Source: a virus (Duplodnaviria; Caudoviricetes). From it: a stretch of 64,000 bases of DNA. Below the pieces are notes generated by a model. That model was not told the origin of the DNA. It worked only from the letters and a program-made list of their open reading frames with translations, and searched no databases. Position numbers and translations under genes: made by a program. Shown piece by piece: positions 14,319 through 57,504 of the stretch (positions within the stretch are counted from its first letter, which is position 1; each line of letters starts with the position of its first letter). The stretch lies in the IMG/VR virus record IMGVR_UViG_3300027974_001530; one strand, written 5' to 3'.

Positions 14319-15596
14319 TTAATTTGATAACGGTGCTTTAATTGGTGGGTGTGATTGATAGTTACCTAATTGAATGTCATCTTCTAATAAACATTTACAA
14401 AAATTATCATCTTTAAATGATTCAAATACCTTAACGGCATCTATAGATCCTACACCGCACTCACCTGATTCAGTTGGCCAGAACTCAGTGTTGATGTTTA
14501 GGATTGGTAGTGTATATGGTTCTCTTGTTCGGGTTGGTACATTCCATTGATCAATTTCAGAATGTGATAATGTGCTACTGTCTCCACCATTATAGATTTG
14601 ATTAAACATTTCTTGAGTAACCATTTCTCTTCTTTCATCTAAATCTAATTTTTGACCAATTTGTTCTTTCGTTTGTTCAATATGATTCAAATACAAATGT
14701 GTATCACCCAAGTTGCCAATCAATTCATCAGGAATCATATTAACTGCCTTAGCAATTATTTCCAATAACAGGCCGTAAGATGCAATGTTGAATGGTAGAC
14801 CTAAGAATGTATCTACTGAACGTTGATTCCACATTAGGGAGATTGCTCTGGTTGGTATTGTATCTTTGTATTTTTCATAGTCCATACCACCATCCCCATA
14901 TTTTTCAATATACAAATCGACTCTTTCATCTAAACTCAACTCTCTTGTATAAACTTGAAATCCATAATGACAAGGTGGAAGCATCATTTGATCCAATTCT
15001 CCAACATTCCAAGCATTAACCATTAAACGTCTTGAGTCTGGGTTTGTTTTAAGGTCGTTGATTAGGTTCGCAATTTGGTCATTCTTAGGGACTTCTTTAT
15101 AATGGGTTACAGAACCATGATTCCAACCAGAAGGGACTTTTTTATAACCACCCCAATTTCTCCATTGCTTACCATAAATTGGACCTAACTCACCCCACTT
15201 CTTAGCAAACTCATCATCTGTTTTGATTTCGTTGATGAATTCTTCCTGAGTCATCTTTCTCACTTCAATGTTACTACCTTCATATTGAAATGTTTTTTCA
15301 ACCTCAGGGTAAATTTTACAATAGTTCTTATAAGCATCACCATCCCAAATATGACAATTGTTATCAACAAGGAATTTAATGTTTGTATCACCACGTAGGA
15401 ACCATAGTAATTCAGTCACCATAGTTTTCCAAGCCATCTTCTTGGTTGTGAGTAATGGAAACCCATCACTCATTTTATGACGGATCTGTCTACCAAAAAC
15501 ACTAATTGTGCCGGTCTTTGTACGATCCATTTTACGGGTACCATTATCTAAAATGTCCTGTAATAAATCTGTGTATTGCCTATCTAAATTATTCAT
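14319..15596 (-). CDS. thyA: thymidylate synthase with large insertions
   Basis: DRTKTGT, FPLLTTKK, ELLWFLRG, LGPIYGKQWR, LPPCH, NQRSVDTFLGLPFN, GDTHLY. Confidence 0.95.
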   Translation of the reverse strand: MNNLDRQYTDLLQDILDNGTRKMDRTKTGTISVFGRQIRHKMSDGFPLLTTKKMAWKTMVTELLWFLRGDTNIKFLVDNNCHIWDGDAYKNYCKIYPEVEKTFQYEGSNIEVRKMTQEEFINEIKTDDEFAKKWGELGPIYGKQWRNWGGYKKVPSGWNHGSVTHYKEVPKNDQIANLINDLKTNPDSRRLMVNAWNVGELDQMMLPPCHYGFQVYTRELSLDERVDLYIEKYGDGGMDYEKYKDTIPTRAISLMWNQRSVDTFLGLPFNIASYGLLLEIIAKAVNMIPDELIGNLGDTHLYLNHIEQTKEQIGQKLDLDERREMVTQEMFNQIYNGGDSSTLSHSEIDQWNVPTRTREPYTLPILNINTEFWPTESGECGVGSIDAVKVFESFKDDNFCKCLLEDDIQLGNYQSHPPIKAPLSN

Positions 15597-40361: not shown

Positions 40362-41213
40362 TTATGAAAATGGGATTTCTTTTATTTGACCTAATGTTTT
40401 AAAATATTCAACTCTTGTTTTGGCAATCTCAGTATAATTTGGTGATAACTCAATACCCAACCATCTACGCCCCAATATCTCTGCTGCTACCAAACTTGTT
40501 CCTGACCCAACAAATGGGTCTAATACTACATCGTTTTTGTAGGACAATATTTTAATCGCCTTTGTTGGGATGTCCATTGAGAAGGTCGCCTTGGTGAGTG
40601 ATTTAGTATCTGCAAAGTAATTCCACTGACCAAAAACAAGTTCCATAAATTCTTTCTTATCTTGTTCTTCATATACCACTTTATTTTTTATGGTTCCATC
40701 CTCCTGAATAATTTCAGTTGGTGTTCCCTTCCACTGTGGTTCTCCTTTAACCTTTTTGATGTGTAATTTTTTATAACCCAAAATAACACATTCTTTTGGG
40801 TTATATATATAAGGACTTGACGGTGACATCCAAGATCCCCACGCAGTTGTTTTACTACGATGAGGTGATTGTTCTTCAAGGTCAACAATACCAAAGAACC
40901 CAAACCCTATCTCTTTCATTATTTGATACATCTCAGAAACAAAAAAGATTCTTCCTCCTTTCTTTTGTCTGTTAATTTCATACGGTATGTTTAACGCAAT
41001 TCTACCATCATCTTTTAACACATTATAGGCTTCAGTTAACCAATTCCTTGCAAAGACCAAGTATTCTTGAAACTCCACGTCATCATCATGAGTATCATAA
41101 GCAATACCAACACCGTATGGTGGTGAGGTAACAATTAAATCAACACAACCTTCAGGTAAGGTTTTCATCACTTCAACACAATCTCCAGTTATTATTTTTC
41201 CTGTTTCTATCAT
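40362..41213 (-). CDS. site-specific DNA methyltransferase (N4-C/N6-A, beta arrangement)
   Basis: GDC, VTSPPY before VLDPFVGSGTS. Confidence 0.92.
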   Translation of the reverse strand: MIETGKIITGDCVEVMKTLPEGCVDLIVTSPPYGVGIAYDTHDDDVEFQEYLVFARNWLTEAYNVLKDDGRIALNIPYEINRQKKGGRIFFVSEMYQIMKEIGFGFFGIVDLEEQSPHRSKTTAWGSWMSPSSPYIYNPKECVILGYKKLHIKKVKGEPQWKGTPTEIIQEDGTIKNKVVYEEQDKKEFMELVFGQWNYFADTKSLTKATFSMDIPTKAIKILSYKNDVVLDPFVGSGTSLVAAEILGRRWLGIELSPNYTEIAKTRVEYFKTLGQIKEIPFS

Positions 41214-43828: not shown

Positions 43829-43972
43829 ATGGGATGTGGTTGTAAAAATAAAGGAAATCAACAAGCTTCAGCTCCTCAACAGGCAGCAAGACCTCAAAAT
43901 GAACAGGTTAAAAATCAATCAGTTCAAGAGTCAGTAAAGAAGATAGTTGAAAAATATTATAATAAAAAGTAA
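43829..43972 (+). CDS. 47-aa microprotein MGCGCKNKGNQQASAPQQAARPQNEQVKNQSVQESVKKIVEKYYNKK
   Basis: Manual translation; TATTTAT at 43792-43798; terminator follows. Confidence 0.7.
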   Translation: MGCGCKNKGNQQASAPQQAARPQNEQVKNQSVQESVKKIVEKYYNKK

Positions 43973-43998
43973 TTAATTTCCTTTGGCCAAAGAAATTA

Positions 43999-44023
43999 AG
44001 GTGGAGTTTTTTCCACCTTTTTT
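43999..44023 (+). terminator. terminator
   Basis: AAGGTGGA-loop-TCCACCTT followed by a T run. Confidence 0.65.
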
Positions 44024-44035
44024 GTATTTATAATT

Positions 44036-45148
44036 ATGGACAATTCAAACTTAAAAGAACTAATTGAACTATTCAATAATGGGTATTGGGAAAAGAGCGT
44101 AAAACCATACTTTAAAAGAGTCCGTACTTTTTTAAAGTACGTTGCAGTAAAAGGTTTATCTGAAGAAATTAGTGTTGAGGTATTAGATAGTGAAGATTAT
44201 AATGAAGGTCCTGATTTTTTTGGGTTTTTAAATGAGAATGGTTATTTAAAAGGAAAAGAGTATGATGACTTTGATAATGAACTTAGAAATTACTTTTTAT
44301 CTTATTGGATTTCAGTTGCTCCAAATAACGCATTTAAATATATAACGAATAATATTATAACCGATGTAGAAATTAGAGATGATGGATTTTGGTTATATTT
44401 AAGGGATCGAGATGAATTGGCCCCTCTTTTTGATGGTAGAGGTCGTGATACGACGGCTAGAAATGTTGCCGAACATGTTTTTGGTGAAGATATGTGGGAA
44501 CCTTATTGGGACACAACATCTGACGTATATAGTGATGTAATTGAGGAACTTGATGAATCTAACTATAGACATTTAGAAAATTATATTTTAAAAATGATCG
44601 GTAATCAGGATTTGGTTGTTGACGATTATAGTTCTGATTTTTTTCATGATTTGGCAAAGTCTCAAAATAGAGGCGAGTTTTTTATGATAACCCAAAATGA
44701 TGTTAATGAGTTACTAAAGGATTCTGAGGCAATGAACGAACTTCTTGATGGTGATCTATCCGATTTAAAAAGTGAATTATATTCTATACATAATAACGCC
44801 TATAATGGTGCATATCAAGATGAATGTTACGCACTTGTTTATGGTGGTCTTGAGGAATTTTTTTCCTCTAAGATTGAGGACGTTCAGATTAAGTCAGGAG
44901 ATAAAACAAAATGGGCATCGTATATTAAGATCGGGGATTTTAAAAGGGATATTATGGAATTTATTGGCCTTGAGGGTGGTAGTGGATATAATGAATCAAA
45001 TTTAGAATACTGGGGTGGTTATGTTAGTATGTTAGGACATCTAATGGATAATGATGTATATGACGAAATTGACTTTAGAGTACCTGATTATGCAGATTGG
45101 ACCTATATTAGAAAAAATATAAACGATCTTTTTACAGACTATATATAA
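44036..45148 (+). CDS. acidic 370-aa hypothetical protein
   Basis: ORF track; TATTTAT at 44025-44031. Confidence 0.8.
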   Translation: MDNSNLKELIELFNNGYWEKSVKPYFKRVRTFLKYVAVKGLSEEISVEVLDSEDYNEGPDFFGFLNENGYLKGKEYDDFDNELRNYFLSYWISVAPNNAFKYITNNIITDVEIRDDGFWLYLRDRDELAPLFDGRGRDTTARNVAEHVFGEDMWEPYWDTTSDVYSDVIEELDESNYRHLENYILKMIGNQDLVVDDYSSDFFHDLAKSQNRGEFFMITQNDVNELLKDSEAMNELLDGDLSDLKSELYSIHNNAYNGAYQDECYALVYGGLEEFFSSKIEDVQIKSGDKTKWASYIKIGDFKRDIMEFIGLEGGSGYNESNLEYWGGYVSMLGHLMDNDVYDEIDFRVPDYADWTYIRKNINDLFTDYI

Positions 45149-45223: not shown

Positions 45224-45919
45224 ATGAGATTATTAAACAAAAATTCAAAAAGATTTATAGTAAATTTATTTTCTGATTTTATTCTTTCAAAGATAGATAA
45301 AACAGAAAAAACTATAATACAAGTTTCTGACTGTAATAGCTTTATTGTTGTCGCAGGTAAAAGTACCAGTAAGGAGATACTTGATCTACAATCAATAAAA
45401 GGAGAGTTCTTTATTAAATTTAAATCTTATTTAGATGACGTTGGTATTGATCACATGAATATAATTGATATAATCACCTATGGTGCAACTTTAGAACCAT
45501 TAGAATGTGGTTGGGTGAATGTTACTAAAGATCTGTATTATAATGTTCCTGAACCTGTGACAAACATTATAACGACTTCAGAATTTCCTTACGGACATAG
45601 TTTAAGTTGTGGTAGATCTATGGTGTATTACTCTAACTACATATTCAATCATATGTATAGTTTGCTTGGTGTAAAAGATTTAAAATTTTATTTCACAACT
45701 GATGTTGACTCTGATGAAGATTTTAAAATTGAAATTTTATCTAAATCTAAAGTTAGTCCTAATGAAATTAAATCTTTGATTTTGGATGTTTTTGATTTTA
45801 ACCTAAATGAGTTCAATAATAAATTAACTAACTATAACCTTATTGAAGACATTTTATACCAAGATAACAATAAGCCATACATGGTACAGGACAGATTAGA
45901 ACATGTAGTTTTATTATAA
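45224..45919 (+). CDS. possible degenerate S-adenosylmethionine synthetase (MetK)-fold protein
   Basis: By-eye similarity to the MetK N-terminus (SDFIL...IVVAGKSTS...DL..I) and C-terminus (KVSPNEIKSLILDVFDF); GHPDK absent. Confidence 0.4.
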   Translation: MRLLNKNSKRFIVNLFSDFILSKIDKTEKTIIQVSDCNSFIVVAGKSTSKEILDLQSIKGEFFIKFKSYLDDVGIDHMNIIDIITYGATLEPLECGWVNVTKDLYYNVPEPVTNIITTSEFPYGHSLSCGRSMVYYSNYIFNHMYSLLGVKDLKFYFTTDVDSDEDFKIEILSKSKVSPNEIKSLILDVFDFNLNEFNNKLTNYNLIEDILYQDNNKPYMVQDRLEHVVLL

Positions 45920-45945
45920 AGAAAAACCACTATTAGGTGGTTTTT

Positions 45946-46233
45946 TTATTTCTTAAAAAATTCTTTTATTATTTTCACCCCATCTTCAATTTCGTCAAAA
46001 TCTCTTTCAGGAGCAAATAATTTAGTTTTTGGTCTTTTTGAGTTTGGGTTCTCTATTGTCATAAAAGATGGTACGTATTCATTCTTTGTTATTTCTGTAA
46101 AAATATCATACTCCTCTTTATAATCGTCAATATCCCTATCAAAGTATTTAATGTTTTCTTTATCCAACATATTTTTTAAGTCGTGACAATAAGAACAACT
46201 TTTCATGGTATATAGTACAACTATCTTATCCAT
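45946..46233 (-). CDS. glutaredoxin-like protein
   Basis: YTMKSCSYC, YVPSF. Confidence 0.8.
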   Translation of the reverse strand: MDKIVVLYTMKSCSYCHDLKNMLDKENIKYFDRDIDDYKEEYDIFTEITKNEYVPSFMTIENPNSKRPKTKLFAPERDFDEIEDGVKIIKEFFKK

Positions 46234-46236
46234 ATT

Positions 46237-46377
46237 TTATTTATTTAAGTAATTTATACTATCATTATAATAGTTTTTATTTTGGTTCGACCCATAAGCA
46301 TCGCAATTAGCGGATTTTGTTGTCTTACATGAAAATAAAACAAAGGTTAACAAAACTGATAAAATTATTCTATACAT
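46237..46377 (-). CDS. 46-aa small lipoprotein (MYRIILSVLLTFVLFSCKTTKSANCDAYG...)
   Basis: Manual translation; LFSC lipobox; fills the Trx-Grx gap. Confidence 0.65.
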   Translation of the reverse strand: MYRIILSVLLTFVLFSCKTTKSANCDAYGSNQNKNYYNDSINYLNK

Positions 46378-46378
46378 A

Positions 46379-46693
46379 TTAATTTAATAAAAGATTTTTA
46401 ACTAAACTTTTTATGTTGTTTTCGGCCATAACACCAACTCGTGTATCAACAACATTTCCCTCATTGAAAATTTTTACAGTAGGGATGCTTCTAATCCCTA
46501 GAGTTGAACTAATCTCTTTATTAAGATCCACATTCATCGTATACATTTCAACTTCTGTTTCATTTTCCGTTGATACTTTTTCAAAAACTGGTTTCATCAT
46601 CTTACATGGTCCGCACCATTCCGCCCAAAACTCAACAATAACTTTTTTACCTGAGTTTATTTTTTTTGTTAGTTCATCACCACTAATTTCCAT
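46379..46693 (-). CDS. trxA: thioredoxin
   Basis: WAEWCGPCK, IRSIPT. Confidence 0.95.
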   Translation of the reverse strand: MEISGDELTKKINSGKKVIVEFWAEWCGPCKMMKPVFEKVSTENETEVEMYTMNVDLNKEISSTLGIRSIPTVKIFNEGNVVDTRVGVMAENNIKSLVKNLLLN

Positions 46694-47075: not shown

Positions 47076-47831
47076 TTAAATCATTTCTTCGGCCAATTCC
47101 CAAAGTTTTGTGTTAATTGTGTTTTGTGCGATTATGTTATCAATTTTTCGCATCTTTGCCATATTACCTCTTTGGTTTGACACTTGTACCCCACCACGGA
47201 TAAATTTCTCTTGTACGGTGTTAAAAACTCTCCAAAGGTCATCTCCTTCATCTTCTTGTCGATTAGGCGTTAGAAGACCCAAGATTTCCATATCATTTAA
47301 TGTTTTTTCAGCATTAAATCTAATTTTTGCAGATTCACGTACGAAATTTATTTTTTCATCAACCGTTAGTTCTCGAGACATCATACGACCAACAGATTGT
47401 TCAATAAATGGAAGTTTTTTAGAAAAGTTGTCTGCCAACTCTTTAACGTCGTCTAATTGAAAGTGGTTATGTCTCATTGTGAATCTCTCAGCGACTGCGG
47501 TTGGTACTGTTAATCCGTTTGAACACACAAGTCTGAATAGTCCTGCACTCAATGAAAATGCCGATGAACCGTTGTGTGAGTTTTTTACGATCGCCTCAAC
47601 CAAAGTGTCACCTACTTTTGGTAGTTCACTATTACGGAATCTGATCTCGTGTAGAGAATGTACTCCCTTCCCTGTTTGTTTTACTGATGCGATTTGCCAA
47701 CCTTCTCTATCAAAGAATTCCAAAACCTGGTCTGTTGGTACAAATGTGTACTTTTCTGTCATCTTAGGTGAGGCTGAAGTTGCAAATACTGAAGGTGCTT
47801 GTGTTTTAATAAGTTCTGGTGTGTAGATCAT
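47076..47831 (-). CDS. DUF932/DUF945 family protein
   Basis: KYTFVPT, NSHNGSSAF, AGLFRLVCSNGL, LWRVFNTVQEKFIRGG; promoter TTTG-N19-TACATTTG at 47856-47886. Confidence 0.85.
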   Translation of the reverse strand: MIYTPELIKTQAPSVFATSASPKMTEKYTFVPTDQVLEFFDREGWQIASVKQTGKGVHSLHEIRFRNSELPKVGDTLVEAIVKNSHNGSSAFSLSAGLFRLVCSNGLTVPTAVAERFTMRHNHFQLDDVKELADNFSKKLPFIEQSVGRMMSRELTVDEKINFVRESAKIRFNAEKTLNDMEILGLLTPNRQEDEGDDLWRVFNTVQEKFIRGGVQVSNQRGNMAKMRKIDNIIAQNTINTKLWELAEEMI

Positions 47832-47887
47832 GTCTTTAGATTTAAAATTATAAAACAAATGTAATGGTTTATTTTAAATAAACAAAA

Positions 47888-48179: not shown

Positions 48180-50114
48180 TTAGTCTTCGCTTTTACAACC
48201 TCTTTTCTTTTTAAGTTCCGGTGGGAAATTAACAATAAAGAAGTCTTCGGTTGGTATCATGTATTTAAATAACTCTTTAGGTAGTCTATCAACATCAATA
48301 CCAGAATCTAACACTGACACAAATGTCAGACAGTATAATGTTGATAATGATTTTGGTAAAGTTTTAAGTTCCTTATTCCCGGTAACGTTTAGGAATGATA
48401 ATACCCCACACTCACCAATAGATTCAGGTAAACTTTTTATTATGTTGTCAGCAACAAAGGTCTTTAAATTTTTAAATCTTGATATATTTGCTGGCACATC
48501 AAATGGTTTTACTTTATCTGATTTGTTTTCTAAGTTAATAAACTGAGTATCTTTAGGTAACATTTCGAATAAAGTTTCTAACCCAAACATCATAGCAAAT
48601 TTGGCAACAGAATCATTAGGGAAAGAAATAGGTAAATATGACAGGTCAAGATTTTTCTTAGCCAATTGTTTTGCATATGAATTAATAAGTGCCTCATGGT
48701 AAGGAGCCATCTCATCACTCATAATTAAGGAAACATCCGCTTCACTTAATTTGTCAATATCTGTTAACAACAACGATTTTCTTTTCTTTGAAAGGTAATA
48801 ATCCTTACTTTCTTTGTCACTTACTTTAAGCATTTCACCATTAATCTTACCATCCATACCAATGTATTTGTGTCTTAAGTATGGCGTAAAGTTTGCCCAT
48901 ATTTGATCACCATTACCAACAGTTGTTAAGTCAGGTGTTCTTAATTCTAACCATAATTCAACATTCTCTTCTGATCCTAATTCCTTTATCGCATCGTCTG
49001 TTGTTAAATTTTTTCTTTCAAAAGTCATCATCATACTTTGTTGTTCACTTGAGTATGGATTAGGTTTGAAGTATTTTTCTTTTCCGTTTAGGTTTGGTAT
49101 TTTTTGTACAATCTCACTAAAAGGCATAATCGTAGATCCTGCGAATCTACCTGAGTTAGTTCCATCCGCTAATCTAAATTGTGTGTTATTTCTCCAATCG
49201 TTATCAACTAAGATTACCACCGCATAATTAACATCACTTTCTTTTAAATTTTTATTAATTACATAGTATAAAGTTAAATTCTGTCTTAATCTATAATTGT
49301 AATAATAGTTTGAGGATCCCTCCCAAGATGTACACCATCTTCTATCAGGAGCGAATTTTTTTCTAATATTAATACACTTATGTTTTTGATCAGGTGCAAA
49401 TATTAATATAGTGTCATCCTCATATGTGACATCAACATCATTAACATCAACTTCAGGCATTTTATATTCATCCTGCATAGGTAAAACGTCAACAACATGT
49501 TCAAACTCAATAAAAGTCATCATACCCGCCGGTTTAGTATTAATAGGGACCAAAGGATAGTTTGCAATATATCTATCAACCCTATTAACGACTTGTTCTA
49601 TATTTTCTTGGGGATTTTCTTTAACCAACTTTTCAGTTAACTTTTCTTTCATAAAATTTTCAAAGTCTCTTCTTATTAAAGCAGAAAGTTCTATGGATGT
49701 CATAGTTAAAATGTCTTTTCTGAACTTCTTAGAATCCAAAGCTTTCATTTCAAAAAATTTCTTAATGTTTAACTTTGTTAATCTTTTATCTGCTCCGGCA
49801 TTTTTTTCCATGAAAGTCTTATAAATGTCATCAAAAGATTTTTTAGACTTTTGACTCTCAGACTTGGAGTTTACAACATCTTTTAGTTTTTGATAGTCAT
49901 AAGTAAAGATATCTCTCTCATTACCCTGTAAAGTACCTTTAAATCTTTCAAAATCAGATATTGTTTGTTTAATAACCTCAATCGAATCTTCTGTTTGGCC
50001 AGAAAATTTTCCAACAAGTTTTTTAACGGTAGATTCTGGATATTCAAGTAATAACCTATTTTTTTTATTCGTATTTTCTTTAACTATATTTGATAATAAT
50101 TTAACAAGTTCCAT
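48180..50114 (-). CDS. 644-aa protein: leader, 'WCT' domain, C-terminal leucine-rich repeats
   Basis: LLSNIVKE/LLLE leader; YEDDTILIFAP...RWCTS; IKSLPESIG..LSFLNV.GN..LKTLPKSL. Confidence 0.75.
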   Translation of the reverse strand: MELVKLLSNIVKENTNKKNRLLLEYPESTVKKLVGKFSGQTEDSIEVIKQTISDFERFKGTLQGNERDIFTYDYQKLKDVVNSKSESQKSKKSFDDIYKTFMEKNAGADKRLTKLNIKKFFEMKALDSKKFRKDILTMTSIELSALIRRDFENFMKEKLTEKLVKENPQENIEQVVNRVDRYIANYPLVPINTKPAGMMTFIEFEHVVDVLPMQDEYKMPEVDVNDVDVTYEDDTILIFAPDQKHKCINIRKKFAPDRRWCTSWEGSSNYYYNYRLRQNLTLYYVINKNLKESDVNYAVVILVDNDWRNNTQFRLADGTNSGRFAGSTIMPFSEIVQKIPNLNGKEKYFKPNPYSSEQQSMMMTFERKNLTTDDAIKELGSEENVELWLELRTPDLTTVGNGDQIWANFTPYLRHKYIGMDGKINGEMLKVSDKESKDYYLSKKRKSLLLTDIDKLSEADVSLIMSDEMAPYHEALINSYAKQLAKKNLDLSYLPISFPNDSVAKFAMMFGLETLFEMLPKDTQFINLENKSDKVKPFDVPANISRFKNLKTFVADNIIKSLPESIGECGVLSFLNVTGNKELKTLPKSLSTLYCLTFVSVLDSGIDVDRLPKELFKYMIPTEDFFIVNFPPELKKKRGCKSED

Positions 50115-50157: not shown

Positions 50158-51003
50158 TTAATAGTTCATTATTAATATCTCTTCTCCCATATTTTGTTTT
50201 TTACCTTTTTTTGCTGCCGCGGCCTTTGCAAACTCCTTTGATTCCCATCTGTATTCATTTTTAGGGAACCATTCGGATAATAAAGGGAAATCATAATACG
50301 ATAAAGAAAACTTACCTTCAATGTTTTTCAACGTGTTTGCCAATCTTTCATGGTCTTGTCTATCAAAATCATGGTTAGAATAATAGTTTTCTGTTTTCCA
50401 ATATGGTGGATCCAAATAAATGTATGTGGATGGTGAGTCATATTTTTTAATTACATCCGCAAAGTCCATATTTTCCACTTTTGTGATCTTAATAAAATGA
50501 TCAATCCAATCAGGCTTTGATAGTTTATCTCTAAACGTCAAATACTTTGACTTGTACTTACCTTTAAGATCAATAAAAGAACTTGTTTCAGGTTTTGATC
50601 CACTAAATACTTGAGTTAAAACGTAAACATATTTTGCTGCAACTTCATAATCGCCAGGTTTTACGCTGAAACCTTCATTAAATATTTCAGCTTGGAACCT
50701 GGTAAATTGTTCTTTATATAATGGTGGAGTTGTCACCTCACCAAATTTTTGACAATCAATTGAGTTTATTGCCTTCAATAACTCCGTTGGGTTTTGGATA
50801 CACTTAAATAAGTTGTAGTTTAATGGGTTAAAGTCGTTGTAAACAACTTTCTTTAGGTTGGGGAACTCTTTTAAGTCCATATTATAAAAACACCAAAACA
50901 TTCCTCCAAACGTCTCAACATACGTTTCCATATTCTTATCATAGAAAGGGACGATCCACTTTCCTATTTTACTTTTTCCTCCGATATAACTTAACATATT
51001 CAA
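50158..51003 (-). CDS. Dam-like (D12 class) DNA adenine methyltransferase
   Basis: SYIGGKS, YNDFN, YLDPPY, FSLSY, EEILIMNY. Confidence 0.9.
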   Translation of the reverse strand: MNMLSYIGGKSKIGKWIVPFYDKNMETYVETFGGMFWCFYNMDLKEFPNLKKVVYNDFNPLNYNLFKCIQNPTELLKAINSIDCQKFGEVTTPPLYKEQFTRFQAEIFNEGFSVKPGDYEVAAKYVYVLTQVFSGSKPETSSFIDLKGKYKSKYLTFRDKLSKPDWIDHFIKITKVENMDFADVIKKYDSPSTYIYLDPPYWKTENYYSNHDFDRQDHERLANTLKNIEGKFSLSYYDFPLLSEWFPKNEYRWESKEFAKAAAAKKGKKQNMGEEILIMNY

Positions 51004-51777: not shown

Positions 51778-51936
51778 ATGGAAAAGAAAGAAGCAACTAA
51801 AGTCACAGGATGTCGTAAATGTAATAAAGGACAAGAAAATTTACAAATGTTTTTAGTAATCTCAGGTGGATTATTATTTTCTTTGGCAATTTACGGAGCC
51901 GTTAGATTGGTTCAAGACATCGTATCTTGGTTTTAA
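51778..51936 (+). CDS. 52-aa CxxC + TM microprotein
   Basis: Manual translation MEKKEATKVTGCRKCNKG...LVISGGLLFSLAIYGAV. Confidence 0.6.
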   Translation: MEKKEATKVTGCRKCNKGQENLQMFLVISGGLLFSLAIYGAVRLVQDIVSWF

Positions 51937-52856
51937 TCCCTATCATATTTCAAATATGGTCTTATTAGCAGATCTCCTATAACAGTCTGTAATCTAAATC
52001 CTTTACTCTTAATTCTCAATGGTTTAGATGTATCCATATGTTTTGGGAAATTGACCGATATGTCCCCATCAGGGTGTGGAACTATAAAATTATCCTTGTT
52101 AATCTCTTCTAAATTAAAAAACTTATTATAAATTAAATGTTCCCCAAATTTTTCAAATCCACTCTCATTTGTTAAACTAATTTTTAATAATAAATCCCCG
52201 TATATTCCATTACCATAATCGCCCATATCATTTAGTCTCAACATTTGTCCATCATCAATACCATGTGGTACTTTAACTTCAACTGACTTTACCTCATCTT
52301 TTGTACCAGATCCATGACAAGCATAACAAGCATTCGTTATAATTGTTCCAAATCCTCGACAAGAGTCACATGGAGATTGTACCATTTGTACGAACATTCC
52401 ACTCCCCATTTGTTTCCAAGTAATCCCTTCTCCTTTACATGTTTCACAAACTTTTTTATCACCACCAGTACCATTACAAGGATCACACTTTTCTTTTCTT
52501 TTATAATTTAACGAAACTTTTTCATTAGTGAAACTTTTTAAAACATCCACACTTAAGTTGATTACTCTTGATGGTTTTCTTTGTTGTCTAAATTGATTAT
52601 TAAACATCTCATACATATCCGAAAATTGGTCGAACTTTGAATTGCCGAATGGGTTCTTTCTTTGGATGTCATATTCTCTACGTTTATTGTCATCCCCAAT
52701 CACATCATAAGCACCAGATATTTTCTTAAACAATTCTTCATCCCCGCCTTTATCTGGGTGGTTTTCCTTTGCTAAACTTCTATAAGCCTTCTTAATTTCG
52801 TCTTGTGTTGCCGTCTCCTCAACGCCTAATATGTTATAATAATTTTCAGAGTTCAT
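51933..52856 (-). CDS. dnaJ: DnaJ chaperone
   Basis: J-domain with HPDK; four CxxCxGxG repeats; VKVPHG C-terminal domain. Confidence 0.93.
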   Translation of the reverse strand: MNSENYYNILGVEETATQDEIKKAYRSLAKENHPDKGGDEELFKKISGAYDVIGDDNKRREYDIQRKNPFGNSKFDQFSDMYEMFNNQFRQQRKPSRVINLSVDVLKSFTNEKVSLNYKRKEKCDPCNGTGGDKKVCETCKGEGITWKQMGSGMFVQMVQSPCDSCRGFGTIITNACYACHGSGTKDEVKSVEVKVPHGIDDGQMLRLNDMGDYGNGIYGDLLLKISLTNESGFEKFGEHLIYNKFFNLEEINKDNFIVPHPDGDISVNFPKHMDTSKPLRIKSKGFRLQTVIGDLLIRPYLKYDRD

Positions 52857-55310: not shown

Positions 55311-56753
55311 TTATTGTGTTTTTCTACCGTATGAAATTAAATTTCCTATTCTTTCTAAATCCTCGTTAATTTTTTTAGACTTTTTACTACTTCTTTTTTC
55401 CCCACTTTCAACTTTATTTAAAAGATCAGAAGCATCATCACTTCCTGGTCTATCTTTAACAATAGGTTGTGGAGATTTATTATAAGCCTTTTTCTTAATT
55501 TGACCTAACAAATTCTTTTCTCTAATTTCATTTCTTCTTTTGTTTGTTGGTGTTTCTACCGCATTTGCCCATTTAGGGTTGTTTCCTGTTCTTGACGATC
55601 CAAGAACATTATCTTCAACCCACTCTTTATTAGGTGCGAATTCATCGTATTCAATATTTTCTAATGCTGCTGCAGTAAAGTTTTCAACGTATTCTGCAAC
55701 ACTATCTGAAGGAACATACGCCATCTTATCCATTTCTTCTATCTCTCCATTACCCATTGGGAAATGTTTAGGTTCCATAGTAAATGACTCTTTAGATCCA
55801 TCTTTCATGTAATCTTTCATTTTTTTAGAAACTTCTTTGTAGTAATCTTGATTTTCTTTTCCTGATTTATCAAAAGATCTTTCATACTCAGAATATCCTC
55901 TAGTTTTTTTAGATGGTTTTAATTTCTCTTCGGCCAAAGTCTCAATTAAATTAACAACTTGTTCTTCACTTAATCTTACGGTTCTACCTAACTTATCGTT
56001 GAATATTTCGTACTCATACATTTTTGTTCTGAAGGTTTTTTCTCCGTCATTCCAAAAATCAGATGTTTTTTTCGCATTATCAAACATGTCTTCTTCAAGT
56101 TTTGGTTCGTACTGGAAGTCGATACCTTGAGAAAAACCTTCTCCTCCACACCATTCACATTCAGTGTCATTAAATTCGTCGTATCCTGTTCCATTACAAT
56201 GTGAACACTCCTCTTCATGATCACCATAATAAGGGTTAAACATACTTAAATCTTTATAATCATCACCTTTAAATTCTAAAAGATCAGACTCTTTCATTCC
56301 ACATTCAGAACATTCTCCCTCCATTTTCAATCCACCACACTCACAAACATCACTTTCATTAACCTCAAATTCGTAGATTGTTTCTTCTTCCATTGGCCAT
56401 TTACCTCCACATTCCATACATTCTCCACGACCTTCTTTTGTTTCTTTTTTGTTTCTTAACATTTTGAAGTCCTCTCTATCGATTCTACCATTTTTGTTTT
56501 TGTCTATATTTCTTTGTTTACCATATAGTTTTTCGCTAAGGTCTTTTTCCATACTTTCTTTTGTTTCTTTTTTGTTTCTTAACATTTTAAAATCTTCACT
56601 ATCAATTCTACCGTTTTTGTTTTTGTCTATATTTCTTTGTTTACCATATAGTCTTTCATTAAGATCTTCTTCCACATAATCAAAAGAATTTCCGGCTTTA
56701 TTGAATTTCATTGTATCGTATTTTTCGGATATTTTTCCTCTATAGTTTTTCAT
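55311..56753 (-). CDS. modular protein with duplicated EF-hand-like unit, Cys-rich zinc ribbons and many xxE sites
   Basis: DKNKNGRIDxEDF twice; CMECG, CSECG, CSHCNGTG..CEWCGGEG; TATTTAT at 56767-56773. Confidence 0.75.
   Translation of the reverse strand: MKNYRGKISEKYDTMKFNKAGNSFDYVEEDLNERLYGKQRNIDKNKNGRIDSEDFKMLRNKKETKESMEKDLSEKLYGKQRNIDKNKNGRIDREDFKMLRNKKETKEGRGECMECGGKWPMEEETIYEFEVNESDVCECGGLKMEGECSECGMKESDLLEFKGDDYKDLSMFNPYYGDHEEECSHCNGTGYDEFNDTECEWCGGEGFSQGIDFQYEPKLEEDMFDNAKKTSDFWNDGEKTFRTKMYEYEIFNDKLGRTVRLSEEQVVNLIETLAEEKLKPSKKTRGYSEYERSFDKSGKENQDYYKEVSKKMKDYMKDGSKESFTMEPKHFPMGNGEIEEMDKMAYVPSDSVAEYVENFTAAALENIEYDEFAPNKEWVEDNVLGSSRTGNNPKWANAVETPTNKRRNEIREKNLLGQIKKKAYNKSPQPIVKDRPGSDDASDLLNKVESGEKRSSKKSKKINEDLERIGNLISYGRKTQ
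56434..56658. repeat. 123-bp-period in-frame imperfect duplication
   Basis: CCATATAGT at 56521 and 56644; 41-aa period LYGKQRNIDKNKNGRID. Confidence 0.85.
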
Positions 56754-56778
56754 TTCTTTTTTTATTATAAATATATGA

Positions 56779-57504
56779 TTATCCAAGTTTATTCATTTCA
56801 CTTAAGATAATATCTTTAATAATATCCTCATGAATTTCATACTTATCACTTATTCTTTTTATTACATTTTCTACCGATTGATTCTCAAAAATGTTAAGAG
56901 CTTTGATATCACCTTGGTTACAATATGGGAAACGTTTACATTTTTTTTTAACCTGAACAAATTTTCCTCCAGGTAATTGTGTTTTGGCTCTACCTCTCCA
57001 ATTTTTCTTACTCATAGATTTAGCCCAAGCTCCTGTTGTTTCATATGATCCGGAAGATGAAGATGAGGTTGCCTCAGTTGCCTCAATTTTTTTCGGTTCT
57101 TCACCTGAAAATAAAGGTTCAAAGGATCCTGATCCTCCTGTTGCGGTCGCCTCTTTGGTTTCTGAATTATTTTTTTTAGTAGTAACTACCATTTCTAAAA
57201 AATCCTTTAATTCTTCAGGATCTTTTAAATATTTTTTCATTTCCTGTTTTATCTTGTTTTTTGATAACTTTTTGTTTTTAATAAGTTTGTACATTTCAAT
57301 TATATCCTTCTTATCTTTTAAAAAATCCATATAATGATTTTTTGTATTTTCTCCGTTATCTTCTTCTGTTTGTATTGTTGATAATAAATCGTTTTTTGAT
57401 TGGATGGCAGAGGTAGGATCTAATTGACCTCCACCCTCATAACCTCTAGCATTTGCAATTACTTCGGAAAAACTTTTTTGTATTGCCCCTTTCCAATCTT
57501 CCAT
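56779..57504 (-). CDS. hypothetical protein with repeated EAT-Ser/Gly segments
   Basis: TKEATATGGSGSF, ATEATSSSSSGSY; KKCKRFPYC. Confidence 0.75.
   Translation of the reverse strand: MEDWKGAIQKSFSEVIANARGYEGGGQLDPTSAIQSKNDLLSTIQTEEDNGENTKNHYMDFLKDKKDIIEMYKLIKNKKLSKNKIKQEMKKYLKDPEELKDFLEMVVTTKKNNSETKEATATGGSGSFEPLFSGEEPKKIEATEATSSSSSGSYETTGAWAKSMSKKNWRGRAKTQLPGGKFVQVKKKCKRFPYCNQGDIKALNIFENQSVENVIKRISDKYEIHEDIIKDIILSEMNKLG

What the first reader, a model, noticed from the sequence alone, without database searches (positions are those of the whole stretch)
45224..45919. Possible shrunken, catalytically dead MetK (SAM synthetase) mimic
Seen by eye: IVNLFSDFILSKI...FIVVAGKSTSKEILDLQSI aligns with MetK IADQISDAVLDAI...MVLVGGEITTSAWVDIEEI, and KVSPNEIKSLILDVFDF aligns with KVPSEQLTLLVREFFDL. 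The protein is only 231 aa and lacks GHPDK. Established: MetK is oligomeric, and T3 SAM lyase binds and inhibits MetK, lowering the SAM needed by type I restriction-modification and BREX. Inference: a dominant-negative or scaffolding MetK mimic that manipulates host SAM pools as anti-defence.
Basis: inference. Interest (0 to 1): 0.62.

Follow-up and report, generated by a model that had tools for sequence, protein, structure and literature searches.

The report
Shrunken dead MetK homologue in phage
A giant lake-water phage that probably infects Flavobacteria-like hosts carries a well-conserved 231-residue relative of the SAM-making enzyme MetK; it has lost the enzyme's middle third and every catalytic residue checked, so it cannot make SAM, and its real job is still unknown.

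Summary
ORF 45224-45919(+) encodes a 231-aa protein whose AlphaFold2 model (pLDDT 95) matches only methionine adenosyltransferases. Foldseek gives E 4e-8 and TM 0.62-0.68. An independent aligner gives Z 15.4 with 218/231 residues aligned, and the next unrelated fold scores 5.3.

The protein keeps the PF00438-like and PF02773-like segments. It lacks PF02772 and the P-loop strand. All 16 MetK catalytic or ligand residues checked are substituted or deleted.

The gene is real: dN/dS is 0.07-0.17, it forms about 280 clusters at 50% identity, and it is found only on viral contigs. It was present in 40 of 40 related phage loci chosen through an independent marker, so it is a core gene.

The "dominant-negative, SAM-lowering anti-defence" reading is not shown, and circumstantial evidence leans against it. 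These phages carry their own SAM-dependent DNA methylases, the gene is core rather than accessory, and it has no host-type early promoter.

My best guess (about 0.4) is a self-associating binder that uses the remodelled MetK cleft.

The scan has found this family before on other DNA, with the same verdict.

The parts
45224..45919 (+). Gene for the 231-aa two-segment MetK homologue ('mini-MetK'), stop codon included
   Evidence: ORF and translation. 588+ near-length homologues and 279 clusters at 50% identity. dN/dS 0.07-0.17. AF2 pLDDT 95. MAT fold.
45245..45526 (+). Residues 8-101: counterpart of the MetK PF00438 segment (helix, two strands, helix, strand); GHPDK replaced
   Evidence: Registers from hhalign and the TIGR01034 hit of P0181, 16-92 <-> 19-98. 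Secondary structure. MetK His15/Asp17/Lys18/Glu43/Glu56 (numbering with Met1) correspond to S/T, K/R, G/F, Q/E/K and variable.
45527..45577 (+). Residues 102-118: short variable linker standing in for MetK ~105-260 (all of PF02772 plus the start of PF02773); site of a ~45-aa insert in the ~270-aa subfamily
   Evidence: Pfam boundaries on E. coli MetK are 4-101, 114-231 and 233-370. Alignment registers. Column variability. Insert position, with no GAGDQG remnant.
45578..45631 (+). Residues 119-136: family hallmark S-x-F-P-x-G-[YF]-S-L-x-x-G-R-x-x-x-Y-Y, collinear with the MetK signature-2 loop (GAFSGKDxxKVDRSxxY)
   Evidence: S119, F121, P122 and G124 are >=90% conserved in 95 diverse members. 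The ungapped register keeps Phe263/Arg273/Tyr277, but Lys266->Gly, Lys270->variable and Asp272->Gly.
45578..45898 (+). Residues 119-225: counterpart of the MetK C-terminal segment (PF02773 from ~255/261 to 374)
   Evidence: hhalign P=1.8e-4. PF02773 is the only recurrent Pfam hit among 95 members (9 members, best E 4.3e-5).
45920..45947 (.). Bidirectional terminator-like hairpin (12-bp stem, T-runs on both sides) between the mini-MetK gene and the convergent glutaredoxin gene
   Evidence: 6 terminator-like sites in 2.7 kb against 0.7 expected.

Best explanation
SHOWN: the gene encodes a genuine, divergent homologue of S-adenosylmethionine synthetase (MetK/MAT). It retains the PF00438-like and PF02773-like segments, which are two of the enzyme's three pseudo-symmetric lobes. 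It has lost the PF02772 segment and the P-loop strand, and it has lost all 16 catalytic/ligand residues checked, so it cannot make SAM. It is a purifying-selected core gene, fixed in position, of a lineage of large (about 220-300 kb) freshwater phages with Bacteroidota-type expression signals.

INFERRED (my commitment, about 0.35-0.4): it is not a decaying relic and not a poison subunit. I read it as a neofunctionalised binding module. The flat beta-sheet face that in MetK makes the tight dimer must still be buried, so the protein most likely self-associates. The former inter-subunit active-site cleft would then be lined by the family's own near-invariant residues: Asn14/Asp18 at the start of helix 1, Asp82/Tyr86 on the sheet face, the Ser119-Phe-Pro-x-Gly124-[Tyr/Phe]-Ser126...Gly130-Arg131 loop in place of the triphosphate loop, and Tyr135/Tyr136. 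I propose that this cleft binds a small anionic ligand (nucleotide-, phosphate- or SAM-related) or carries a new chemistry, serving the phage's own replication or nucleotide/cofactor metabolism rather than acting as an immediate-early anti-restriction weapon.

Confidence in the identity part is about 0.9. The confidence figure given for this explanation is for the mechanism.
For: Fold: Foldseek PDB E 3.7e-8, prob 1.00, TMq 0.62-0.68, all top hits MAT. VIA-align Z 15.4 (218/231 aligned), 13.5 and 8.9 for bacterial and archaeal MATs against 5.3 for the next fold. The ESM-Atlas nearest cluster is a viral MAT family, TM 0.71.

Homology: hhalign P 1.8e-4. PF02773 is the only recurrent Pfam hit (9/95, best 4.3e-5). 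TIGR01034 metK is the top recurrent NCBIfam hit (7/95, best 8.3e-5).

Dead as a MAT: the 16 residues are >=95% conserved in 37 MetKs (14 invariant), and in the family each is substituted or in the deleted segment. No member of the family approaches 380 aa.

Functional gene: dN/dS 0.07-0.17.

Core gene: 40/40 marker-selected loci carry it, and synteny with Grx/Trx is kept at 25-30% identity.

Remodelled rather than decayed site: the strongest conservation in 95 diverse members lies in the loop collinear with MetK's phosphate loop and in residues that by register face the old cleft. A protein that only needed to fold would let these drift.

No own MetK partner: none of the four >=90%-complete genomes has a canonical MetK.

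Host-type signals: Shine-Dalgarno motif in 4/87 genes, TAnnTTTG enriched.
Against: No ligand, oligomer or activity has been shown. I had no model coordinates, so the claim that the conserved residues cluster in the old cleft rests on sequence register and strand periodicity, not on measured distances. The adenine-, methionine- and metal-binding residues of MetK are all gone, so there is no positive sign of SAM or nucleotide binding. Several conserved residues (F121, R131, Y135, F190, D191) are also conserved in MetK and may be purely structural. Conservation of the sheet face and loop would equally fit a protein-protein interface, including one with host MetK. Core-gene status could reflect lineage inheritance only.
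Confidence: 0.4

Rival explanations
1. MetK pseudo-subunit. The protein docks on host MetK through the retained sheet face or at the tetramer interface. It either poisons the shared active sites (lowering SAM, as anti-RM/BREX) or regulates or redirects the enzyme for the phage's own methylases.
For: It has the MetK fold and keeps two of the three lobes that build the MetK dimer face. The phages have no MetK of their own, so any MetK partner must be the host's. There is precedent that phages target MetK: T3 SAMase forms heteropolymers with MetK and blocks SAM synthesis (PMC8406200; bioRxiv 10.1101/2023.02.27.530186; PDB 8bb1 appears among the Foldseek hits). The conserved sheet-face residues would suit an interface.
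Against: Identity to MetK is only 9-16%, and the residues on MetK's dimer/active-site face are replaced. The phages encode 1-3 N6/N4 and usually a Dam-type SAM-dependent DNA methylase, two of them in this window, so SAM depletion would be self-harming. It is a strict core gene rather than a variable accessory gene. No host-type early promoter lies upstream. As inference, subunit poisoning acts only on newly made MetK, because assembled dimers exchange slowly, which makes it a poor weapon for a lytic phage.
Confidence: 0.2
2. Ligand-free protein scaffold or adaptor. The two MetK lobes serve only as a stable platform that binds other phage proteins, for example in a nucleotide-metabolism or replication complex with the neighbouring glutaredoxin and thioredoxin.
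For: It lies next to Grx and Trx in every context examined, down to 25-30% identity. It is a core gene. All MetK ligand residues are lost.
Against: Grx and Trx lie on the opposite strand behind a bidirectional terminator, so the linkage may be mere lineage synteny. A glycine/serine/arginine-rich invariant loop at a helix N-terminus looks more like a small-molecule or anion site than a protein-docking patch.
Confidence: 0.2
3. Sponge or degrading enzyme for a SAM-derived defence signal such as SAM-AMP, the second messenger of type III CRISPR with the CorA effector first described in Bacteroides fragilis. This would make it an anti-CRISPR built from a MetK scaffold.
For: The host signals are Bacteroidota-type. 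SAM-AMP signalling exists in Bacteroidota, and phage or host lyases that remove it are known (PMC10600005, PMC12255297). The MetK cleft natively holds SAM next to a (tri)phosphate, so it is a plausible starting point for a SAM-nucleotide pocket (inference).
Against: This is pure inference. MetK's adenine and methionine contacts are gone. Core-gene status and the lack of an early promoter are atypical for an anti-CRISPR. There is no PADLOC or defence-related hit.
Confidence: 0.07
4. The resemblance to MetK is convergent or a modelling artefact, and the protein is unrelated.
For: The single-sequence searches are blank. The first, shallow-alignment model was poor (pLDDT 68).
Against: Two independent structure aligners put only MATs on top, with a large gap to the next fold. 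The match spans 218/231 residues in the MetK order. Sequence-only profiles recover MetK as the one recurrent family.
Confidence: 0.03

Closest known systems
Canonical S-adenosylmethionine synthetase MetK/MAT (PF00438 + PF02772 + PF02773; e.g. E. coli MetK, PDB 1xra/7r2w; Thermus 5h9u; Campylobacter 4le5)
   Same: Same fold and segment order over 218/231 residues (Z 15.4). Weak but specific profile homology to the C-terminal segment, and in some members to the N-terminal segment. Phe/Arg/Tyr of the signature-2 region and the F-D of the last helix are retained.
   Different: About 150 residues shorter. PF02772 and the DxGxTGRKII strand are absent. GHPDK, GAGDQG and the Lys/Asp of GGGAFSGKD..D are all replaced or deleted. 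It is found only in phages. It cannot be a SAM synthetase.
Archaeal-type MAT (PF01941; M. jannaschii, PDB 7p82)
   Same: Same fold at a lower score (Z 8.9, 195 residues aligned).
   Different: It is a full three-domain active enzyme, and it is more distant from this family than the bacterial MATs are.
Full-length MetK genes carried by phages as auxiliary metabolic genes
   Same: Viral genes of the MetK superfamily. 126 IMG/VR stretches encode 46-84%-identical full-length MetK. The nearest ESM-Atlas cluster is a mostly viral MAT family.
   Different: Those are recent, intact, three-domain copies with all motifs. The mini-MetK lineage is old, deleted and dead, and the phages that carry it have no full-length MetK.
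T3 SAMase / SAM lyase (Svi3-3 family), which cleaves SAM and polymerises with MetK (PMC7877911, PMC8406200, bioRxiv 10.1101/2023.02.27.530186)
   Different: It has an unrelated fold and a demonstrated enzymatic activity. It is an immediate-early accessory gene of phages that leave their DNA unmethylated. None of this is shown here, and the phage here encodes its own methylases.

Membership tests
MetK/MAT enzymes (functional S-adenosylmethionine synthetases) | Three-segment architecture PF00438 + PF02772 + PF02773 (~380 aa) | tested here: not met
   The protein is 231 aa. E. coli MetK domains are 4-101, 114-231 and 233-370. The family aligns only to ~15-100 and ~255-374. No member of 279 clusters exceeds 277 aa among the best 150.
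MetK/MAT enzymes (functional S-adenosylmethionine synthetases) | GHPDK motif (His14/Asp16/Lys17 in literature numbering) | tested here: not met
   The aligned positions 8, 10 and 11 are S/T, K/R/Q and G/F/S in 95 members, while H, D and K are invariant in 37 MetKs.
MetK/MAT enzymes (functional S-adenosylmethionine synthetases) | GAGDQG motif and the middle-segment ligands (Asp118, Asp163, Lys165, Phe230, Asp238, Arg244, Lys245) | tested here: not met
   All of them lie in MetK ~105-260, which is replaced by a 17-residue variable linker. The ~45-aa insert of the long subfamily has no such motif.
MetK/MAT enzymes (functional S-adenosylmethionine synthetases) | Signature 2 GGGAFSGKD...D with Lys265, Lys269 and Asp271 | tested here: not met
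   The loop is retained in place, but Lys->Gly124 (93/95), Lys->variable position 128, and Asp->Gly130 (73/94). Only Phe, Arg and Tyr are kept.
MetK-like superfamily (common descent and fold) | MAT fold: repeated beta-alpha-beta-beta-alpha-beta lobes in MetK order | tested here: met
   Foldseek E 3.7e-8, TMq 0.62-0.68. VIA Z 15.4/13.5/8.9 against 5.3 for the next fold. Atlas TM 0.71. Model pLDDT 95.
MetK-like superfamily (common descent and fold) | Sequence-profile similarity beyond chance | tested here: met
   hhalign P 1.8e-4. PF02773 hit by 9/95 members, best 4.3e-5, with all other families singletons or doubletons. TIGR01034 hit by 7/95, best 8.3e-5. This is weak for any single member: the window's own protein gives no hit alone.
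MetK-like superfamily (common descent and fold) | Oligomerisation through the flat sheet face | not testable with these tools
   No coordinates or oligomer data were obtained. It needs SEC-MALS, native MS or a structure.
Phage SAM-depleting or MetK-inhibiting anti-restriction proteins (T3 SAMase type) | SAM lyase fold and activity | tested here: not met
   The fold is MAT, not SAM lyase. Activity was not assayed.
Phage SAM-depleting or MetK-inhibiting anti-restriction proteins (T3 SAMase type) | Physical binding to host MetK and a fall in SAM | not testable with these tools
   It requires pull-down or co-expression with the host MetK and a SAM measurement.
Phage SAM-depleting or MetK-inhibiting anti-restriction proteins (T3 SAMase type) | Early, accessory gene in phages that do not depend on SAM themselves | tested here: not met
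   It is a core gene in 40/40 loci. No host-type promoter lies upstream. SAM-dependent DNA methylases are present in the window and in 4/4 complete relatives.

The most novel reading that the evidence does not exclude
The mini-MetK is a MetK-derived sponge or hydrolase for a SAM-containing immune signal (for example SAM-AMP of Bacteroidota type III CRISPR/CorA systems), or a pseudo-subunit that rewires host MetK. Either way it would be a new class of phage counter-defence or takeover protein built by deleting one lobe of a universal housekeeping enzyme.
Probability: 0.1. Interest if true: 0.85.

Novelty: new variant of a known kind. Interest (0 to 1): 0.55.

Why it matters
MetK is one of the most conserved enzymes in biology. 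I know of no described natural derivative that has lost a whole lobe and all its catalytic residues yet stays under strong purifying selection, and my literature searches found none. Here such a derivative is a fixed core gene in a widespread lineage of giant freshwater phages. If it binds a SAM-related ligand or host MetK, it would reveal a new way in which phages handle the cell's methyl-donor economy. If it has another ligand, it is a clean example of a pseudoenzyme being re-used. It is also a compact, confidently modelled two-lobe version of the MAT fold, which is useful for asking how the three-lobe enzyme was built.

Tried and rejected
(1) Single-sequence searches of P0001 against Pfam, PHROGs, NCBIfam, PADLOC and PDB sequences gave nothing significant. 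A shallow profile (A1) against PDB sequences also gave nothing.

(2) tblastn against 50,697 isolate phage records found no match, so there is no cultured relative.

(3) The first AF2 model, from a 26-sequence alignment, was poor (pLDDT 68). It was replaced by the 95-sequence model.

(4) Complex prediction with Flavobacterium johnsoniae MetK (METK_FLAJ1, a stand-in host) plus the family alignment returned 'no answer' (score 0.00, controls not run). It is not evidence either way.

(5) Host inference failed. A genome-contig scan with the family found none in 185,579 species genomes, which is a pattern-limited result. The same scan with the phage DnaJ found no close cellular relative. The window's own assembly is not held.

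(6) The alignment A2 was too diverse for the search for related loci.

(7) The ESM-Atlas look-alike search was unusable because the Atlas's own model of this protein is poor (pLDDT 0.34).

(8) Global-mode hhalign fails. Only local alignments are informative.

(9) RNA evidence: contigs from lake metatranscriptome libraries overlap the gene in X19 (100% identical, 45441-45591 and 45752-45902) and X22 (~94%, 45420-45668). DNA carry-over was not excluded and the parts without cover mean nothing, so this does not count as proof of transcription.

(10) The ~45-aa insert of the 270-aa subfamily was checked as a possible remnant of the lost lobe. No MetK motif was found.

(11) The 370-aa upstream gene was considered as an obligate partner and rejected, because it is absent in the 273-aa subfamily contexts.

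(12) BFVD holds only one uncharacterised family member.

Full report
THE GENE. It lies in a short plus-strand island within a mostly minus-strand region. The island holds a 47-aa ORF (43829-43972), a 370-aa ORF (44036-45148) and this gene. A strong bidirectional terminator-like hairpin (45920-45947) separates the gene from the convergent glutaredoxin and thioredoxin genes. Pairwise dN/dS among 13 orthologues is 0.07-0.17 where dS is unsaturated, so it is a real, constrained protein-coding gene.

THE FAMILY. A word-indexed search found 588 or more homologues, almost all exactly 231 aa and none carrying a name. An exhaustive HMM search of 1.84 billion representatives found 279 clusters at 50% identity. 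Full-length members are 205-277 aa, and none of the best 150 approaches MetK's ~380 aa or is fused to another domain. A pattern scan of 185,579 species genomes found no member. IMG/VR holds at least 316 contigs with it, several of 220-304 kb and 93-100% complete.

IS IT MetK-LIKE? Single-sequence methods see nothing. With a 95-sequence alignment spanning 23-69% identity (A2), AlphaFold2 gives a confident model (pLDDT 95.0, pTM 0.90).
- Foldseek against the PDB returns only methionine adenosyltransferases at the top (E 3.7e-8, probability 1.00, query TM 0.62-0.68).
- An independent aligner run against 48,161 representative chains gives Z 15.4 (218 of 231 residues aligned), 13.5 and 8.9 for two bacterial MATs and one archaeal MAT. 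The next, unrelated chain scores 5.3 and covers one lobe only.
- The ESM-Atlas nearest structural cluster is a mostly viral MAT family (TM 0.71).

Sequence-only evidence also points to common descent. I built a MetK profile from E. coli metK and 36 full-length viral MetK genes. hhalign aligns family residues 120-225 to MetK 255-374 with P=1.8e-4. When the 95 members are scanned one by one, PF02773 is the only recurrent Pfam family (9 members, best E 4.3e-5). TIGR01034 metK is the top recurrent NCBIfam model (7 members, best 8.3e-5). One member matches metK over its N-terminal half, 16-92 <-> 19-98.

WHAT IS KEPT AND WHAT IS LOST. On E. coli MetK the Pfam segments are 4-101 (N), 114-231 (M) and 233-370 (C). 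The family matches ~15-100 and ~255-374. MetK ~105-260 is replaced by a variable 17-residue linker (residues 102-118), which carries a ~45-aa insert without MetK motifs in a ~270-aa subfamily. In the structural nomenclature I recall from the E. coli MetK papers, this removes the body of the 'N-terminal domain', one of three pseudo-symmetric lobes, plus the P-loop strand.

I listed 16 residues that the MetK literature assigns to catalysis or to metal, phosphate, adenine or methionine binding (roles from memory, marked as such). All are at least 95% conserved in my 37 MetK sequences, and 14 are invariant. In the family, eight are substituted: His->Ser/Thr, Asp->Lys/Arg, Lys->Gly/Phe, Glu->Gln/Glu/Lys, Glu->variable, Lys->Gly, Lys->variable and Asp->Gly. 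Eight have no counterpart. The protein cannot be a SAM synthetase.

The most conserved element of the family is S119-x-F-P-x-G124-[YF]-S126-L-x-x-G130-R131-x-x-x-Y135-Y136. It is collinear, without gaps, with MetK's signature-2 phosphate loop, and it keeps that loop's Phe, Arg and Tyr. Other near-invariant residues are N14, G45, F40, F62, D82, Y86, S184, D188 and F190. By register and strand periodicity, N14/D18, D82/Y86 and the loop face what was the inter-subunit active-site cleft. This is an inference, because I had no coordinates.

CONTEXT AND HOST. The window is phage-like. It has thymidylate synthase, RNA ligase, a sigma factor, DUF932, DnaJ, two DNA methylases, thioredoxin and glutaredoxin. 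Shine-Dalgarno motifs are essentially absent (4 of 87 genes, against 7.7% at random positions), and TAnnTTTG is enriched upstream of genes (16% against 4.4%). Full TTTG-N17-23-TAnnTTTG promoters occur 19 times against 7.1 expected. These are Bacteroidota hallmarks. The DNA recurs in lake and freshwater metagenomes from 2017 to 2024. A recent paper describes similar large aquatic phages ('moraphages') with DnaJ/DnaK, glutaredoxin and a sigma factor, predicted to infect Flavobacteriia (PMC12619734). It does not mention this gene, and I did not verify that this phage belongs to that lineage.

CORE OR ACCESSORY? I selected related phages through an independent marker, the 644-aa protein 2.3 kb away (identity down to ~45-50%). 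All 40 loci with enough flanking DNA carry the mini-MetK at the same place and orientation. Members only 25-30% identical keep the same convergent arrangement with Grx, Trx, a ~112-aa gene and a ~570-645-aa gene. It is therefore a vertically inherited core gene of the lineage.

BEARING ON THE ANTI-DEFENCE IDEA.
- None of the four >=90%-complete genomes has a canonical MetK, so a MetK partner could only be the host's.
- All four encode N6/N4-type DNA methylases, three also encode Dam-type ones, and two methylases sit in this window. A phage that methylates its own DNA gains little from draining SAM.
- No host-type promoter precedes the gene, whereas T3 SAMase is the first protein made (PMC8406200).
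- The MetK dimer-face residues are replaced.
- By inference, poisoning by subunit exchange would act only on newly made MetK.
These points lower the dominant-negative reading but do not exclude it. My one complex-prediction job gave no verdict and is listed only under Tried and rejected.

VERDICT. Identity as a two-lobe, catalytically dead MetK homologue has a confidence of about 0.9. For mechanism I commit, at about 0.4, to a self-associating binder that re-uses the remodelled MetK cleft for a small anionic ligand or a new chemistry in the phage's own metabolism. The rivals are a host-MetK pseudo-subunit (0.2), a ligand-free scaffold (0.2), a SAM-AMP-type signal sponge (0.07) and no real relationship (0.03).

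The scan has met this family before on other genomes. An earlier follow-up on another lake phage reached the same 'two-domain dead MetK, job unknown' verdict. My analysis is independent of it. It adds the core-gene test, the residue table, the recurrent-family homology tests and the methylase argument.

Noticed in passing
window 43829-43972 (+), hairpin 43998-44019: A 47-aa ORF with an invariant N-terminus MGCGCKNK, a Gln-rich middle and an invariant C-terminus (...QESVKKIVEKYYNKK) is conserved just upstream of the mini-MetK unit, even in the divergent 273-aa subfamily (L083, L086, L087). It has its own terminator-like hairpin and is covered by contigs in three lake RNA libraries. Its function is unknown and no family hit was found.
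   Followed up: partly
window 44036-45148 (+): A 370-aa acidic protein lies between the small ORF and the mini-MetK and has no family hit. It is present in close relatives, sometimes with an extra 331-aa gene, but absent in the 273-aa subfamily contexts, so it is a variable insertion in the unit.
   Followed up: partly
window 46379-46693 (-), 45946-46233 (-), 46237-46377 (-): Thioredoxin and glutaredoxin genes converge on the mini-MetK in every relative examined. Between them in this window lies a 46-aa ORF with a lipoprotein-like signal (...LFSC).
   Followed up: no
window 47076-47858 (-) and 48180-50114 (-): A DUF932 protein and a 644-aa protein (its homologues give a weak PcfJ hit) form a conserved pair downstream. 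Both families are typical of conjugative-element leading regions and their function is unknown.
   Followed up: no
window 40362-41213 (-) and 50158-51003 (-): Two orphan SAM-dependent DNA methyltransferases (N6_N4 type and Dam/D12 type) lie within 5 kb on either side of the mini-MetK.
   Followed up: partly
window 14319-15596 (-): The thymidylate synthase homologue is 425 aa, but its match to the PHROG profile spans only ~280 profile positions. This suggests a ~140-aa insertion (an extra domain or intein-like element?).
   Followed up: no
window 55311-56786 (-): A 491-aa protein has EF-hand or dockerin-like calcium-binding repeats, which is unusual in a phage.
   Followed up: no
window 51933-52856 (-): There is a full-length DnaJ (J domain, Zn-finger and C-terminal domain). 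No close cellular relative was found by the pattern scan of species genomes.
   Followed up: partly
IMG/VR loci L003-L082: At least 126 viral contigs carry intact full-length MetK genes (46-84% identical to E. coli MetK). Phage-borne active MetK is therefore common and is a separate phenomenon from the mini-MetK.
   Followed up: partly
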